Source of the DNA: Flavobacteriales bacterium
Lineage (GTDB): Bacteria > Bacteroidota > Bacteroidia > Flavobacteriales > Weeksellaceae
Reading direction: 5' to 3'
DNA: 64,000 nt
Assembly: GCA_002747105.1 (NCBI GenBank)
Contig: PDSY01000016.1
Location: 28,473 to 92,472 of the forward strand
In this document: positions 23,985-49,675 of the stretch, in pieces
Position numbering within the stretch: the stretch's first letter is position 1
Layout: each line of letters begins with the position of its first letter
Program-made: the position numbers and the translations under genes
Notes under the pieces: generated by a model
The model's database searches: none
Seen by the model: the letters and a program-made list of their open reading frames with translations, nothing else
What the model was told of the DNA's origin: nothing

Positions 23985-24201
23985 AGTGTTTTATTTTGCG
24001 ATACATCCACGAATTTAGATAAAAAAATGGTAATCACAAAATTTTAAACCTATTATTTTGTTGATTATAAATAGTTAAGGCTGTTTTGAGTTTTAAATAT
24101 TCAATGCTAAATTGTATTGGTTTAACTTGTGAAATACATAATAAATACAGTAAAATTTTAATTTTTAAATAGCAAGTTTAGGATGATTAATATTATGCCT
24201 G

Positions 24202-24281
24202 TAACCTCATAACTCCGTAACTCCATCACCTTTTCAACGCCTCAAATCATTTATCATTCAGTCATTCAATCATTGTACATT
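24202..24281. repeat. octamer-phased cryptic repeat array
   Basis: Ten consecutive 8-nt units all starting with T: taacctca, taactccg, taactcca, tcaccttt, tcaacgcc, tcaaatca, tttatcat, tcagtcat, tcaatcat, tgtacatt. Confidence 0.7.
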
Positions 24282-25041
24282 AGCTGTTCTGCCTTAACAT
24301 CTCATAGCAACTAATTGCTACGGCATTACTAAGGTTAAGAGAATCTATTTTTCCACACATTGGGATAAGGGTGTTTTGTCCTTTATCTCGCCAAAAATCA
24401 CTTAGCCCAGAATGTTCTGTTCCAAAGACAATTGCCGTTTTTTTAGGCAGTTGAATTTCATTCATCATGATAGCATCTTCAGACATGATGGTAGTATAAA
24501 TACTAATATGATTTTGAATTAAAAAGTCAGCAATCGCTGTATTTGTCCCTGAAAAAACATTCATTCCAAAAAAACAACCTACACTTGAGCGAATCACATT
24601 GGGATTGTAGATGTCAATCTTGGCATCGGCAATTAAAATGGCATCTATTCCAAACGCCTCGCAACTCCTTAGAATCGCTCCTAAATTACCAGGTTTTTCG
24701 ACGCTTTCTAAAACAATAATTTTACAATTTTCATTCACTTTAAAATCTTCTAAGCGATTGTCACGAATTTCATACACTCCGATTATTCCCTCCGAAGAAC
24801 CACGATAAGCAATTTTAGCATAAACCTCTTTTGAAACCAAATTAACTTTCGTTTGGGGCAAGGCTTGACCGAAAATATCCTCACAGACATAAAATTCCAC
24901 AGGCTGATGCTCGAAGGCTAAAGCCAATTCGTTTTCCTGCTGACCTTCCACCAAAAAAACACCTTCTCTCTTTCGGAAAGCATTTTTGTTAGTGAGTTTT
25001 TGTAAGTATTTTATTTTATCGTTTTTGGTGCTTGTGATCAT
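24280..25041 (-). CDS. TrmH/SpoU family RNA methyltransferase
   Basis: 'LESVEKPGNLGAILRS', 'FGTEHSGLS' and 'SLNLSNAVAI' SpoU motifs. Confidence 0.9.
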   Translation of the reverse strand: MITSTKNDKIKYLQKLTNKNAFRKREGVFLVEGQQENELALAFEHQPVEFYVCEDIFGQALPQTKVNLVSKEVYAKIAYRGSSEGIIGVYEIRDNRLEDFKVNENCKIIVLESVEKPGNLGAILRSCEAFGIDAILIADAKIDIYNPNVIRSSVGCFFGMNVFSGTNTAIADFLIQNHISIYTTIMSEDAIMMNEIQLPKKTAIVFGTEHSGLSDFWRDKGQNTLIPMCGKIDSLNLSNAVAISCYEMLRQNS

Positions 25042-25044
25042 AAG

Positions 25045-25156
25045 ATTGAAAAATTAAAAAATTAAAAGATTGAAAAATGAAGAGATTAAGAAATTACCTA
25101 ATTACCTAATTACCTAATTACCTAATTACCTCATTCCCCAATTCCCTCATCATCTT
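25045..25156. repeat. octamer-phased cryptic repeat array including 5 x ATTACCTA
   Basis: Fourteen consecutive 8-nt units beginning AT(T): attgaaaa, attaaaaa, attaaaag, attgaaaa, atgaagag, attaagaa, attaccta x4, attacctc, attcccca, attccctc, atcatctt. Confidence 0.8.
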
Positions 25157-26666
25157 GACTCTTAGCTCTCGGCTCTTGATATTCCGATTGGCTCTCTAAT
25201 AATTTTTGCGATAATTCTTTTTTACTTTTAATGCCTAATTTTTTGAGTTTTTGGGTCTGAGTAACCAAATTATCTCTTCCTGTATAGAGTTGTTTGTAGG
25301 CGTTATCATAGTTGTTTTTGGCTTTTTCGATGTCCTTTCCTACTTTTTCTAAATTTTCCACAAAACCTACGAACTTATCATAGAGTTTCGCTCCTCTTTC
25401 TGCGATTTCCATTGTATTTTTATTTTGGTAATCTCTCTTCCAAAGGTCAGCGATGAGCTTTAGGGAAGTAATGAGGTTGGTAGGGTTTAATAATAAAATT
25501 CTTCTTTCGTAAGCAAAAGACCAAAGATTAGGGTCAGCTTGCATTCCCGCAATATAGGCAGGCTCACTTGGAATGAACATAATCACGAAATCCAAGGTTT
25601 TCCCATAATCGTCATAGGCTTTGTGCGAAAGTTGCGTAATATGATTTTTAATCGATTGTAAATGTTGGTTGATTTTAATTTGATAAACATCAGGGTCGGT
25701 TTCATCAACAAGTTCGGTAAATGCCGTTAAAGAAACTTTGGAGTCAATGATAACATCTCTTTGGTCAGGGTATTTTACGACCGCATCAGGACGCATTTTC
25801 TTTCCTGAAAACTGAGAATGTAAGGCTTTGTTGTTTTCATCGGTAAGCTGATGCTCCAAGAAATATTCTCGCCCTTTGGTAAGCCCTGATTTCTCCAAAA
25901 TATTCTCCAAAATCATTTCGCCCCAATTTCCTTGCGTTTTGCTCTCTCCCTTCAAGGCACGAGTGAGTTTTTTGGCATCGTCGGAGATTTGTTGATTGAG
26001 GTCGGCGAGTTCTTTTACTTTTTCGGCTAAGGAAAATCGTTCTTTATTTTCCTTTTCGTAGGCATCGTTTACTCGGTTTTTAAGCTCGGTGATTTTCTCC
26101 TGAAAAGGTTCAAGGATTCCTTTAAGTTTGGTTTCGTTCAGCGAGGTGAATTTCTCTGTTTTTTCTTCTAAAATCTGTTGGGCTAAATTTTTAAACTCTT
26201 CTTTGGCAAGTTGCTGAATTTTCTTTGTCTCTTCTTTTTGAGCCTGAATAAGCGCTTGTAGGCTTTCGTTTTGAGCTGATAACTGAGCGTTTTTGTTGGA
26301 AAAATGTTCTTTTTCGGATTGTATTTTTTTTATTTCTTGACTTTGCTGAGCGTTCAGTTCCTTTTGAGCCTGAATGGCTTGGTTCTGAGTTGTATTTTCG
26401 GTGGAAATTTTAGTGATTTCTTGTTTCAGATGGGCTAAGGTTTCGTTTTGTGTATGATTGATTTGTTTTTCATTTTCAAGGGCGTGGCTGAGTTCTCCAA
26501 TCTTTTGTTCTGCATTTTCCAAATCCGAATGAGAGCGAATAAAATTTTGGTTCAGTTCGTCATATTTTTTTCGAGCAACCGCATTGGATTTAGACCAAAA
26601 ATACATTAGAACAATACCAATAATTGCGCCTATTATAATGCCGATAATTAAAGTGTAATTTTCCAT
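25131..26666 (-). CDS. rmuC: DNA recombination protein RmuC
   Basis: N-terminal TM helix, a long coiled coil, then the RmuC nuclease-like core 'RPDAVVKYPDQRDVIIDSK...FIPSE'. Confidence 0.9.
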   Translation of the reverse strand: MENYTLIIGIIIGAIIGIVLMYFWSKSNAVARKKYDELNQNFIRSHSDLENAEQKIGELSHALENEKQINHTQNETLAHLKQEITKISTENTTQNQAIQAQKELNAQQSQEIKKIQSEKEHFSNKNAQLSAQNESLQALIQAQKEETKKIQQLAKEEFKNLAQQILEEKTEKFTSLNETKLKGILEPFQEKITELKNRVNDAYEKENKERFSLAEKVKELADLNQQISDDAKKLTRALKGESKTQGNWGEMILENILEKSGLTKGREYFLEHQLTDENNKALHSQFSGKKMRPDAVVKYPDQRDVIIDSKVSLTAFTELVDETDPDVYQIKINQHLQSIKNHITQLSHKAYDDYGKTLDFVIMFIPSEPAYIAGMQADPNLWSFAYERRILLLNPTNLITSLKLIADLWKRDYQNKNTMEIAERGAKLYDKFVGFVENLEKVGKDIEKAKNNYDNAYKQLYTGRDNLVTQTQKLKKLGIKSKKELSQKLLESQSEYQEPRAKSQDDEGIGE

Positions 26667-48352: not shown

Positions 48353-49675
48353 TTAATTAGTTATTTTTAATATTGATGAATTTTCTTTGTGAAATTGCTT
48401 TTTTCGGTCTTGTCGAAATGGAATAACACCTAAAATTTGTTCGTTATCACAAAGTATCCAAATTTTTTGTTTTGCGAAAATAGACAATTTTTTGTCTTTA
48501 AAAAAATTTGACACTTTCTTTTTCCCAGACATTCCTATTGGGTAGAAAAAATCGCCGTCTTTTTTCCGTCTTAAATAGACTGGGAATTTAATATTTTCAA
48601 GGTTGAAATTCCACTCAAACTCTCCTTCAAAATCAATGAAATCCGAAAGTGAAATCGAATTCTTTATCTTTTCTAAATCTTCTTTTCTCTCTATTAAAAC
48701 GATTGAGTCTTGATTCTTGGTTCTTGACTCTTGGTTCTTGACTCTTGGTTCTTGACTCCTGATAATCAACTCGTTTCTATTGATGGTTAATTGGTAATCT
48801 TTCGTTAGGAAAATTTTCCCTGACTCTGCTGAAAATATTTTTTGAATTTCTTTTTCTGCATTAAAACCAAACTTCCTTAAAATTTCAAATTGCACAAAAG
48901 CACTTTGTTTTTCCAGTGCTGATTTATTGAAGATAATTTCATTGTTATTTTGAGTGATCGTCAATTCGTTTTGAATGTTTTGAATTTGTTCCTCAATGAA
49001 AGACTGTGCATCATTCAAATAGCGAAAGGTTTTTCGACTGTTTTCAATAAGTTGAGGTTGGATTTCCTCCATTTCAGGAATGATTTTATTTCTCAACTGA
49101 TTTCTCACATAGTCGTTTTTAGCATTTGTTTTATCTTCTCGGAAATCGATTTTTTGAGTTTTGGCGAAAGCGTATAATTCCTCTTTCTTGAAATTTAACA
49201 AAGGTCTAATTATCTCATTATTTTTTTGAGGAATACCTTTTAAGCCTTTTAAACCTGTGCCTCGGGAGAAGTTAATGAAAAAAGTTTCTACATTATCGTT
49301 CAAATGATGAGCTGTAACGATAAAGTCTAATTTTTCTTCCTTTTTAATTTGCTTAAAGAAACGGTAGCGCAAATCTCTTGCCCATTCTTGAATAGCGTTT
49401 TTGGGCTTTTGGTCACTTTCTGAGACTTGATAAAGCTGAAATGGAATATTTCTTTTTTGGCAAAAATCACGAACTAATTTTTCATCTAAATCTGAATCTT
49501 TTTTTCGTAATTGGTAATTGATATGAGCAATCTGGAAATTTAATTTTAATTGATAAAACAAATCCGCTAAAACCATAGAATCTACTCCGCCACTTACAGC
49601 GAGTAAGTAGCGTTTATCTTGGAAATCAGGTGCTATAATTTCTAACTGATATTTGAAATTTTCAAGGTTTAACAT
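48353..49675 (-). CDS. tilS: tRNA lysidine(34) synthetase TilS
   Basis: PP-loop 'LAVSGGVDSMVL' and 'TAHHLNDNVETF'. It contains an in-frame low-complexity insert 'SQEPRVKNQESRTKNQDS'. Confidence 0.92.
   Translation of the reverse strand: MLNLENFKYQLEIIAPDFQDKRYLLAVSGGVDSMVLADLFYQLKLNFQIAHINYQLRKKDSDLDEKLVRDFCQKRNIPFQLYQVSESDQKPKNAIQEWARDLRYRFFKQIKKEEKLDFIVTAHHLNDNVETFFINFSRGTGLKGLKGIPQKNNEIIRPLLNFKKEELYAFAKTQKIDFREDKTNAKNDYVRNQLRNKIIPEMEEIQPQLIENSRKTFRYLNDAQSFIEEQIQNIQNELTITQNNNEIIFNKSALEKQSAFVQFEILRKFGFNAEKEIQKIFSAESGKIFLTKDYQLTINRNELIIRSQEPRVKNQESRTKNQDSIVLIERKEDLEKIKNSISLSDFIDFEGEFEWNFNLENIKFPVYLRRKKDGDFFYPIGMSGKKKVSNFFKDKKLSIFAKQKIWILCDNEQILGVIPFRQDRKKQFHKENSSILKITN
48706..48761. repeat. 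heptamer (CAAGAnn on the coding strand) tandem array inside tilS
   Basis: Eight 7-nt units (four 14-nt super-units 'gttcttgactcttg') encoding 'QEPRVKNQESRTKNQD'. Confidence 0.85.

What the first reader, a model, noticed from the sequence alone, without database searches (positions are those of the whole stretch)
25045..25156. 112-nt octamer-phased array (14 units starting AT/ATT, core 5 x ATTACCTA) between rmuC and the SpoU-methyltransferase gene
Every 8th base from 25045 to 25156 starts a unit beginning AT(T). The centre is a near-perfect 5-copy microsatellite 'attaccta'. The array covers the whole intergenic region upstream of the TrmH/SpoU gene (ATG at 25041) and continues across the rmuC stop codon into its last codons.

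An 8-nt phase does not match helical repeat or codon structure. It is more consistent with slippage-generated DNA, or with a reiterated binding site. Because it sits where the methyltransferase promoter must lie, changes in copy number could alter promoter geometry.
Basis: seen in the sequence. Interest (0 to 1): 0.4.

Follow-up and report, generated by a model that had tools for sequence, protein, structure and literature searches.

The report
Octamer-repeat hairpin spacer between two genes
The 8-base repeat run is real, but it is not a promoter device: it is one of several dozen 7-8-base repeat blocks that fill gaps between same-direction genes in this bacterium, and the same kind of block flanks a small mobile-looking gene (S23p) across the family.

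Summary
Fifteen consecutive 8-nt units start with AT (25037-25156); simulations give at most 7. Both flanking genes lie on the minus strand, so the array covers the rmuC tail plus the whole 89-nt rmuC-spoU spacer.

It is not unique. This 1.2-Mb Weeksellaceae MAG has 32 period-7 and 36 period-8 arrays, against about 1 each by chance. Array-bearing gaps lie between co-oriented genes (36), rarely convergent (3), never divergent (0). They follow a polarity: G-rich units after the upstream stop, C/T-rich units before the next ATG (rho -0.69, p 5e-8). The two sides are often complementary.

The focal locus fits this. GAGGGAAT/TGGGGAAT/GAGGTAAT/TAGGTAAT x4 is followed by ATTTCTTA/ATCTCTTC/ATTTTTCA/ATCTTTTA. 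Pairing depends on G.U, and the sense RNA folds at -33 kcal/mol (z about -2), so the hairpin here is marginal.

In 29 relatives' loci the same polar inverted arrays flank S23p (23S-rRNA-IVS protein) genes (p 1e-12). I read the focal array as a gene-less, partly decayed, recently re-expanded member of this class.

No Bacteroidota promoter motif lies in it. Orthologous spacers in relatives are mostly 0-55 nt and lack it.

This scan has reported the same architecture in other phyla. Published analogues are cyanobacterial STRRs and Xanthomonas GGGAATC pairs.

The parts
25131..26666 (-). rmuC (511 aa). Its last ~17 residues (YQEPRAKSQDDEGIGE) are encoded by the heptamer and octamer arrays.
   Evidence: ORF. 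Pfam RmuC PF02646, E 9.5e-99. Tail compared with relatives; sense sequence.
24280..25041 (-). SpoU/TrmH-family RNA methyltransferase (253 aa). The start codon is conserved with relatives.
   Evidence: Pfam PF00588 and PF22435. tblastn alignments start at residue 1 in 18 relatives.
25153..25180 (-). Heptamer array (sense CAAGAGC-like, 4 units) coding part of the RmuC tail. It belongs to the same unit family as the arrays in tilS and other ORFs.
   Evidence: Read directly. Family seen genome-wide.
25093..25156 (-). 5' (G-type) octamer arm on the sense strand: AAGATGAT GAGGGAAT TGGGGAAT GAGGTAAT TAGGTAAT x4. It contains the rmuC stop TGA (25131-25133). The perfect core 25093-25124 forms the predicted apex.
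   Evidence: Array G-C = +18.
25045..25092 (-). 3' (T/C-type, nearly G-free) octamer arm on the sense strand: TTCTTAAT CTCTTCAT TTTTCAAT CTTTTAAT TTTTTAAT TTTTCAAT. It ends 3 nt before the spoU ATG. It is the same AATCTTTT-type array seen just upstream of several other start codons (listed in the full report).
   Evidence: G-C = -7.
25042..25170 (-). Predicted sense-RNA hairpin: 50 pairs (32 A-U, 12 G.U, 6 G-C), -33.1 kcal/mol. It links the rmuC stop region to the base next to the spoU ATG.
   Evidence: Dinucleotide shuffles z -1.95 (9/200). Arm-wise shuffles z -2.06 (15/500). Unit-order permutation, 3/500 as good. Antisense only -14.0 kcal/mol, z -0.29.
24245..24274 (-). A separate G-type octamer array (sense GAATGATT-like) immediately after the spoU stop, following the same grammar.
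   Evidence: TRF; sense sequence.

Best explanation
The array is a lineage-specific, gene-less member of a class of 7-8-nt tandem-repeat elements. These elements colonise the spacers between co-oriented genes in Weeksellaceae and other Flavobacteriales. Their canonical form is: upstream stop codon, then a G-containing array, a loop (sometimes carrying an S23p / 23S-rRNA-IVS-protein gene), the complementary C-containing array, a short A-rich leader, and the next ATG.

At this locus the element separates rmuC from spoU, which abut in many relatives. Its 5' arm was recently re-expanded by replication slippage (TAGGTAAT x4-5, perfect). Its 3' arm looks like an old complement that decayed by C-to-T changes, so pairing survives only as G.U in the sense RNA.

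Shown here: the periodicity, the genome-wide class, its polarity, its restriction to co-directional gaps, and its identity with S23p-cassette arms.

Inferred: the RNA hairpin at this particular locus, and the C-to-T decay history.

Speculative: the stem is processed by RNase III, as rRNA intervening sequences are; or it keeps the rmuC stop and spoU start close together, preserving translational coupling. The net effect on the cell is probably near neutral. It is not a promoter switch.
For: - Periods 7 and 8 dominate the genome: 32 and 36 arrays of at least 3 copies, against 0-2 in Markov simulations and 6-7 at periods 6 and 9.
- Array-bearing gaps: 36 tandem, 3 convergent, 0 divergent. All gaps of 40-260 nt: 408, 90, 87.
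- Polarity: arrays in the 5' half of a gap have G>C 19:5; arrays in the 3' half have C>G 19:1; rho -0.69, p 5e-8. Array-free gaps show no polarity (126:122 and 117:137).
- The 5' half is more complementary to its own 3' half than to those of other loci (p 0.006-0.009). Watson-Crick examples fold with z -4 to -6.
- The same grammar appears in two relatives of other genera.
- GGTAATTA arrays in four other genera are followed in four of five loci by a complementary TAATTACC-type array.
- 29 S23p loci: flank complementarity median 33 against 16 cross-locus, p 1e-12; upstream flank G>C in 28/29. 42 of 60 flanks carry arrays, mostly of period 7 or 8; 27/30 and 24/30 have same-strand neighbours.
- The only S23p gene in G000 carries the same GTTAGAA/TTCTAAC arms as several gene-less hairpins.
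- Focal fold and unit-by-unit nested pairing.
- Relatives lack the array at the orthologous site.
Against: - The focal hairpin is marginal: z about -2, and 7% of 3'-arm unit orders fold as well.
- At DNA level the two halves are not complementary (Smith-Waterman score 11, near the bottom of 40 loci).
- The T-rich AATCTTTT-type array recurs before other start codons without a G partner. The locus may therefore be two unrelated half-elements, or a leader array next to a one-sided array.
- Across all array-bearing gaps the sense RNA is not more stable than the antisense (19/36), so selection at the RNA level is not shown.
- No S23p remnant is present at this locus.
- RNase III was not found in the 57%-complete MAG, although it is present in 8/8 same-family relatives.
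- Gene models are ORF proxies, not a curated annotation.
Confidence: 0.58

Rival explanations
1. Plain neutral microsatellite. An octamer seeded in the spacer expanded by slippage and mutated. The apparent two-arm structure and its resemblance to hairpin elements are coincidental.
For: Perfect core flanked by degenerate in-phase copies. No Watson-Crick inverted repeat at DNA level. Fold z only about -2. Several arrays in the genome are one-sided, for example C12:10029 AATGTAGC x11 and C21:65653.
Against: It does not explain the switch from G-type to T/C-type units in exactly the genome-wide polarity. It does not explain the absence of arrays from divergent gaps. It does not explain the nested unit-by-unit correspondence: TGGGGAAT:ATTTTTCA 8/8 and TAGGTAAT:ATTTCTTA 7/8 (read from the sense sequence). 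It does not explain why GGTAATTA arrays in other genera come with complementary partners.
Confidence: 0.17
2. Chimera of two half-elements. This would be either a G-type arm of one hairpin element and the AATCTTTT-type arm of another, joined by deletion of the inner arms, or a one-sided array that abuts a T-rich leader array. On this reading the arms never were partners.
For: AATCTTTT-type arrays have their own Watson-Crick partners (AAAAGATT) at C23:13175, C15:96934 and C25:32797. In G063 (L077) the T-rich array follows a bona fide ATTACCTA arm. C20:3641 shows the same GAGGTAAT plus AATCTTTT combination and also folds weakly (z -1.1).
Against: Unit-order permutation: only 3/500 orders fold as well. 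Last-letter covariation in 3 of 4 nested unit pairs. Recurrence of the same combination at C20:3641 could equally mean a real G.U-paired dialect.
Confidence: 0.13
3. Reiterated binding site. The octamers, as DNA or as sense RNA, are bound cooperatively by a protein. Candidates are an S1- or Csp-like RNA binder, as proposed for TAACTGA repeats, or S23p itself. Binding would regulate spoU translation.
For: The G-free array ends 3 nt before the ATG, as in other genes. MacGregor 2015 (PMC4679880) proposes this for heptamers just upstream of start codons, including in Bacteroidetes.
Against: Unit sequences differ widely between loci, with at least 7 dialects, so no single sequence-specific binder fits. 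The downstream genes share no evident function. No candidate protein was identified.
Confidence: 0.08
4. Phase-variable contingency locus. Changes in copy number alter promoter spacing or the 5'-UTR and switch spoU expression.
For: A perfect 4-5-copy repeat is slippage-prone. Heptamer SSRs in promoters or 5'-UTRs do drive phase variation in Haemophilus (abstract of PMC12721329).
Against: No TAnnTTTG promoter motif in or near the array and no sigma-70-like site on the sense strand. spoU is a housekeeping-type gene in a conserved rmuC-spoU pair. Dozens of similar arrays flank unrelated housekeeping genes. None lies in a divergent promoter gap. A change of 8 nt alters neither reading frame.
Confidence: 0.04

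Closest known systems
Convergent (inverted) pairs of GGGAATC heptamer arrays in Xanthomonas campestris and X. axonopodis (Rehm et al. 2015, PMC4692102)
   Same: Both are tandem 7-nt-class arrays that occur as close inverted pairs able to form stem-loops (70-75 pairs per genome). About 90% are intergenic. They lie nearer the end of the upstream ORF, mostly between same-direction ORFs, and are less common between divergent ORFs.
   Different: Xanthomonas has one G-rich unit, studied as a G-quadruplex former, in a high-GC genome. Here there are at least 7 AT-rich unit dialects, with 8-nt units as common as 7-nt ones. There is a strict G-arm-first polarity relative to transcription (Rehm report roughly equal strand use). 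There is also an association with S23p genes.
Cyanobacterial STRR (short tandemly repeated repetitive) heptamers, including the hupS-hupL intercistronic hairpin
   Same: Both are genome-wide 7-nt tandem arrays that can form a hairpin between co-transcribed genes. Their function is unknown; the proposals are transcript stability or translational coupling (PMC2670836).
   Different: The phylum differs. The units here are 7-8 nt and AT-rich. Paired arrays are the rule rather than the exception (Rehm found few pairs in Anabaena).
Long simple sequence repeats with 5-11-nt units (Mrazek et al. 2007) and TAACTGA heptamer arrays (MacGregor 2015, PMC4679880)
   Same: Both show a heptamer-dominated excess of tandem arrays in some genomes. 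Arrays lie just upstream of start codons or overlap ORF ends. Relatives have shorter, repeat-free spacers with the same neighbouring genes. Other heptamer arrays were noted in Elizabethkingia (Weeksellaceae), Gramella and Aequorivita.
   Different: Those papers do not describe the two-arm complementary layout, the polarity or the S23p link. TAACTGA repeats were judged not to give RNA structure.
23S rRNA intervening sequences carrying an S23p ORF (Coxiella, Leptospira; Warrier et al. 2016, PMC4990558)
   Same: Both have an S23p ORF bracketed by terminal inverted repeats that form a long stem. The element is oriented with host transcription. In rRNA the stem is excised by RNase III.
   Different: Here the cassettes sit between protein-coding genes, not in 23S helix 25 or 45. 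Their arms are tandem 7-8-nt arrays. The focal copy has no ORF. RNase III cleavage is untested.
REP/BIME and REPIN elements
   Same: Both are short extragenic palindromes in transcribed gaps between co-oriented or convergent genes, and are rare in divergent gaps.
   Different: REPs have a conserved family sequence (for example GTAG or CGTC tags) and RAYT transposases. The arms here are defined by architecture rather than sequence. No RAYT was sought.

Membership tests
LSSR / STRR-type tandem arrays (5-11-nt units) | Head-to-tail copies of a 5-11-nt unit, longer than chance | tested here: met
   TRF period 8, 7.0 copies, 89% matches. 15-unit AT phase against a maximum of 7 in simulations.
LSSR / STRR-type tandem arrays (5-11-nt units) | Genome-wide excess concentrated at one unit length | tested here: met
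   32 arrays of period 7 and 36 of period 8, against 0-2 simulated and 6-7 at periods 6 and 9. Relatives have 2.5-4 times fewer.
Inverted tandem-array hairpins (Xanthomonas GGGAATC pairs, STRR hairpins) | Two adjacent arrays of mutually complementary units able to form a stem-loop | tested here: inconclusive
   Focal locus: complementary only through G.U; RNA fold z about -2; DNA Smith-Waterman score 11. Elsewhere in the genome and in relatives the feature is clearly met.
Inverted tandem-array hairpins (Xanthomonas GGGAATC pairs, STRR hairpins) | Location in gaps between same-direction genes, close to the upstream stop | tested here: met
   The focal array overlaps the rmuC stop. Genome-wide, 36 tandem, 3 convergent, 0 divergent.
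S23p / IVS-type cassette | S23p (PF05635) ORF between the inverted arms | tested here: not met
   The spacer is 89 nt with no ORF. The only S23p gene in G000 is at C25:8006-8320. The focal locus can be at most a gene-less derivative.
S23p / IVS-type cassette | Arms with the class polarity (G-type upstream, C-type downstream) built of 7-8-nt arrays | tested here: met
   Focal G-C is +18 then -7. In cassettes, 28/29 upstream flanks have G>C and the arrays are mostly of period 7 or 8.
S23p / IVS-type cassette | Stem cleaved by RNase III; excision from the transcript | not testable with these tools
Phase-variable SSR contingency locus | The repeat lies in a promoter spacer or ORF, so that unit gain or loss switches expression | tested here: not met
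   No TAnnTTTG or sigma-70 site on the sense strand. The perfect core lies between the stop and the start, so reading frames are unaffected.
Phase-variable SSR contingency locus | Copy-number polymorphism within or between populations | not testable with these tools
No relative closer than 62% SpoU identity. Logan contigs of SRR6011892 break inside the core.
Intrinsic terminator | GC-rich stem of at least 5 bp followed by a U-run | tested here: not met
   0 terminator-like sites in 24800-25500. The predicted stem has only 6 G-C pairs out of 50.
Known RNA family (Rfam) | Covariance-model match | tested here: not met
   No hit with E up to 1 in 24500-25700.

The most novel reading that the evidence does not exclude
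Tandem-array hairpins, with or without an S23p gene, may be one widespread and essentially undescribed class of transcription-oriented 'intervening-sequence' elements. On this reading they live in the intercistronic spacers of operons, not only in 23S rRNA. They are neutralised at the RNA level by their own stem, either through RNase III processing or by bringing the stop and the start together. Their arms evolve by slippage plus intrastrand template switching. The focal array would then be a decaying gene-less copy in which G.U pairing still couples rmuC termination to spoU initiation.
Probability: 0.25. Interest if true: 0.7.

Novelty: new variant of a known kind. Interest (0 to 1): 0.38.

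Why it matters
On its own, this array is a minor and probably near-neutral piece of repeat DNA. It should not be taken as a regulatory switch for the methyltransferase.

Its value is as an entry point to three things.

- A strict and replicable grammar in Flavobacteriales: stop, G-arm, loop or S23p gene, C-arm, ATG; only between same-direction genes. This grammar explains a sizeable part of the non-coding DNA in these compact genomes. It also explains odd C-terminal protein tails and in-frame heptamer inserts.

- A link between two poorly understood phenomena: heptamer/octamer STRR-like arrays and the S23p 'intervening sequence' protein family, whose function is still unknown.

- A practical point: these arrays break short-read assemblies, as the Logan contigs end inside the core. 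They can also mislead annotation of gene ends.

Tried and rejected
- Strain comparison: exact-protein look-ups found only two Logan contigs from one run (SRR6011892), and both end inside the perfect core. Scans of genome contigs and metagenome contigs with SpoU found nothing closer than 62% identity. No same-genus comparison was possible.
- My first array detector was too strict and I replaced it with TRF.
- Sense-versus-antisense stability across all array-bearing gaps showed no bias (19/36). A general RNA-level signature is therefore not demonstrated.
- Background composition does not explain the polarity.
- Replication-strand bias is an unlikely cause of the polarity. Plus- and minus-oriented loci interleave on contig C21, and the polarity follows gene orientation.
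- Rfam, sigma-70 promoter, terminator and Bacteroidota -7 motif scans were all negative at the locus.
- Helical-phasing, curvature and codon explanations were rejected because an 8-nt period fits neither.
- Mismatch-repair loss as the cause of array richness was not pursued. The MAG is only 57% complete, so gene absence would not be informative.

Full report
**1. The observation**

The plus strand from 25045 to 25156 reads as 14 octamers that all begin with AT. The core is ATTACCTA x4 plus ATTACCTC. TRF reports period-8 arrays at 25045-25096 and 25092-25147. The AT-every-8 run is 15 units long, starting at 25037. No other period from 5 to 11 gives a run longer than 5 in the window. 100 second-order Markov simulations gave at most 7.

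**2. Anatomy**

Both neighbouring genes are on the minus strand: rmuC at 25131-26666 (Pfam RmuC, E 9.5e-99) and a SpoU/TrmH methyltransferase at 24280-25041.

Read on the sense strand, the region has four parts.
- A heptamer array (CAAGAGC-like x4, 25180-25153) encodes part of the RmuC tail.
- G-containing octamers follow: AAGATGAT GAGGGAAT TGGGGAAT GAGGTAAT TAGGTAAT x4.
- The rmuC TGA lies inside these octamers, at 25133-25131.
- T/C-rich, almost G-free octamers come next (TTCTTAAT CTCTTCAT TTTTCAAT CTTTTAAT TTTTTAAT TTTTCAAT), then CTT and the spoU ATG.

The '14 units' are therefore two different half-arrays in one phase.

**3. Comparison at the orthologous site**

The organism is an uncultured Weeksellaceae-like Flavobacteriales MAG: 1.2 Mb in 27 contigs, 33% GC, 57% complete. 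Its best relatives are Cloacibacterium and Bergeyella, at 60-70% amino-acid identity.

The rmuC-spoU pairing is conserved in about 18 relatives. Their spacer is mostly 0-55 nt, and often the genes abut. None has the octamer array. The array is therefore a lineage-specific gain.

No closer relative exists in the collections searched. Logan contigs of run SRR6011892 end inside the perfect core. Copy-number polymorphism could therefore not be tested.

**4. A genome-wide class**

TRF on the whole MAG finds 32 period-7 and 36 period-8 arrays of at least 3 copies. Third-order Markov simulations give 0-2, and periods 6 and 9 give only 6-7. Units are diverse, including AATGTAAC, GTTAGAA, CTAGTAAT, TTAGGGA, AAAAGATT, TGATGAAT and CAAGAAC.

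I used ORF-proxy gene models for the following counts.
- Array-bearing gaps are 36 co-oriented, 3 convergent and 0 divergent. All gaps of 40-260 nt are 408, 90 and 87.
- In sense orientation, arrays in the 5' half of a gap have G>C (19:5).
- Arrays in the 3' half have C>G (19:1).
- Spearman rho is -0.69, p 5e-8.
- Array-free gaps show no such polarity.
- Loci on both strands interleave on contig C21, and the polarity follows the genes, not the contig strand.

In many gaps the 3' array is the reverse complement of the 5' array. Own-locus complementarity exceeds cross-locus complementarity (p 0.006-0.009). These gaps fold with z -4 to -6.

Relatives G012 and G017 carry the same grammar at a density 2.5-4 times lower.

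**5. The focal locus within this grammar**

It has the right position, running from the upstream stop to the next ATG. It has the right polarity (G-C = +18, then -7).

Its halves are not Watson-Crick complementary (Smith-Waterman score 11). The sense RNA nevertheless folds into one 129-nt hairpin spanning 25170-25042. The hairpin has 50 pairs, 12 of them G.U, at -33.1 kcal/mol. The antisense strand gives only -14.0.

Nested units correspond as follows (counted from the sense sequence).
- TAGGTAAT:ATTTCTTA, 7 of 8 positions pair.
- GAGGTAAT:ATCTCTTC, 6 of 8.
- TGGGGAAT:ATTTTTCA, 8 of 8.
- GAGGGAAT:ATCTTTTA, 6 of 8.

Significance is modest. Against dinucleotide shuffles z is -1.95. Against arm-wise shuffles z is -2.06. 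Only 3 of 500 unit-order permutations fold as well, but 7% of 3'-arm permutations do.

The pattern fits an old ATTACCTA-type arm that decayed by C-to-T changes, plus a recent slippage expansion of the 5' arm. This history is an inference.

In four other genera, GGTAATTA arrays are followed in four of five loci by a complementary TAATTACC-type array (the fifth, L078, is not), again between a stop and an ATG.

**6. Link to S23p**

Earlier notes of this scan suggested that such hairpins are gene-less miniatures of cassettes carrying an S23p gene. I tested this.
- The MAG's single S23p gene (PF05635, 137 bits, C25:8006-8320) lies between a GTTAGAA-type array, which starts right after the upstream stop, and a TTCTAAC-type array, which ends before the next ATG. 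These are the same units as in gene-less hairpins at C9:8059, C17:17198 and C25:9519.
- S23p occurs in all 12 same-family relatives searched.
- In 29 loci the upstream flank is complementary to its own downstream flank: median score 33 against 16 cross-locus, p 1e-12. The upstream flank has G>C in 28/29 and the downstream flank C>G in 22/29.
- 42 of 60 flanks carry TRF arrays, with smallest period 7 in 30 and 8 in 8. 27/30 and 24/30 loci have same-strand neighbouring ORFs within 200 nt.

The polarity and the restriction to co-directional gaps thus match an oriented cassette that depends on host read-through transcription.

rRNA intervening sequences with S23p ORFs are bracketed by stems that RNase III cuts (PMC4990558). 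RNase III is present in 8/8 same-family relatives but was not found in the incomplete MAG.

**7. Against the promoter reading**

- No TAnnTTTG (the Bacteroidota -7 element, from my own knowledge of the field) occurs on the sense strand between the spoU ATG and 26595.
- No sigma-70-like site lies on that strand, and there is no terminator-like site or Rfam match.
- The perfect core lies between the stop and the start, so a change of 8 nt cannot shift either reading frame.

**8. What is known**

- Heptamer-dominated long SSRs (Mrazek 2007, as summarised in PMC4679880).
- Cyanobacterial STRR hairpins between hupS and hupL, with proposed roles in stability or translational coupling (PMC2670836).
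- TAACTGA arrays, including other heptamers in Elizabethkingia, Gramella and Aequorivita.
- Convergent GGGAATC pairs in Xanthomonas (PMC4692102).

I did not find the following in the papers searched: co-dominance of octamers, the strict G-arm-first polarity, and S23p cassettes in mRNA spacers with tandem-array arms. This scan has, however, already noted the architecture in several other phyla.

**9. Verdict**

The feature is real and non-random. It is a partly decayed member of a known kind of repeat, in a new lineage and variant. A promoter-switch role is unlikely, and the function of the class remains open.

Noticed in passing
window 48703-48763 (tilS); also G000 C20:5815-7821, C8:40440, C17:12549, C22:33581: The CAAGAAC/AGAACCA heptamer family has no stop codon in any frame on either strand. 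It is the one family found inside long ORFs. One 607-aa ORF on C20 contains at least 7 such arrays. The same units form the RmuC tail here and occur in relatives (AGAACCA/AGAACCG in G012).
   Followed up: partly
window 24195-24274 (minus strand): Right after the spoU stop lie G-type octamers (TGAATGAT-like) and a second array, GAGTTACG GAGTTATG AGGTTACA. spoU is therefore flanked by arrays on both sides.
   Followed up: partly
G000 C25:7925-8400; L088 (G005), L108 (G001), L111 (G012), L092 (G009): S23p cassettes sit at what looks like the same site in five genera. The site is after an ORF ending ...IQYMLQKGKPLRN and before a thiolase-like gene starting MK.AYIVKGYRTAVGKAP. The arm units differ (GTTAGAA, TGTACAA and others). 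This is either an insertion hot spot or an ancient insertion with fast-evolving arms.
   Followed up: partly
G000 C25:28929-29369: A 441-nt gap is bounded by an AATGTAAC array after the stop and GTTAAACTG-type units before the ATG. It encloses no ORF.
   Followed up: no
L004 (G013) rmuC-spoU spacer, 168 nt: In this relative the same spacer ends in a C-type heptamer array (ATCATTT ATCAATC ATCACTT ATCATTT) directly before the spoU ATG. The site has been colonised independently by a different dialect.
   Followed up: no
G000 C24:31606-32910: Three neighbouring gaps carry TTAGGGA/TCCCTAA (telomere-like) heptamer arrays. Two gaps hold only G-type arrays (one of them holds two G-type stretches) and one convergent gap holds the C-type.
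   Followed up: no
window, 30 nt upstream of start codons genome-wide: Leaders are A-rich at about -13 to -10 (A 0.6-0.7) and have only 5-10% G. This fits Shine-Dalgarno-less initiation in Bacteroidota. The spoU leader lacks this A-tract because the array runs up to 3 nt before the ATG.
   Followed up: partly
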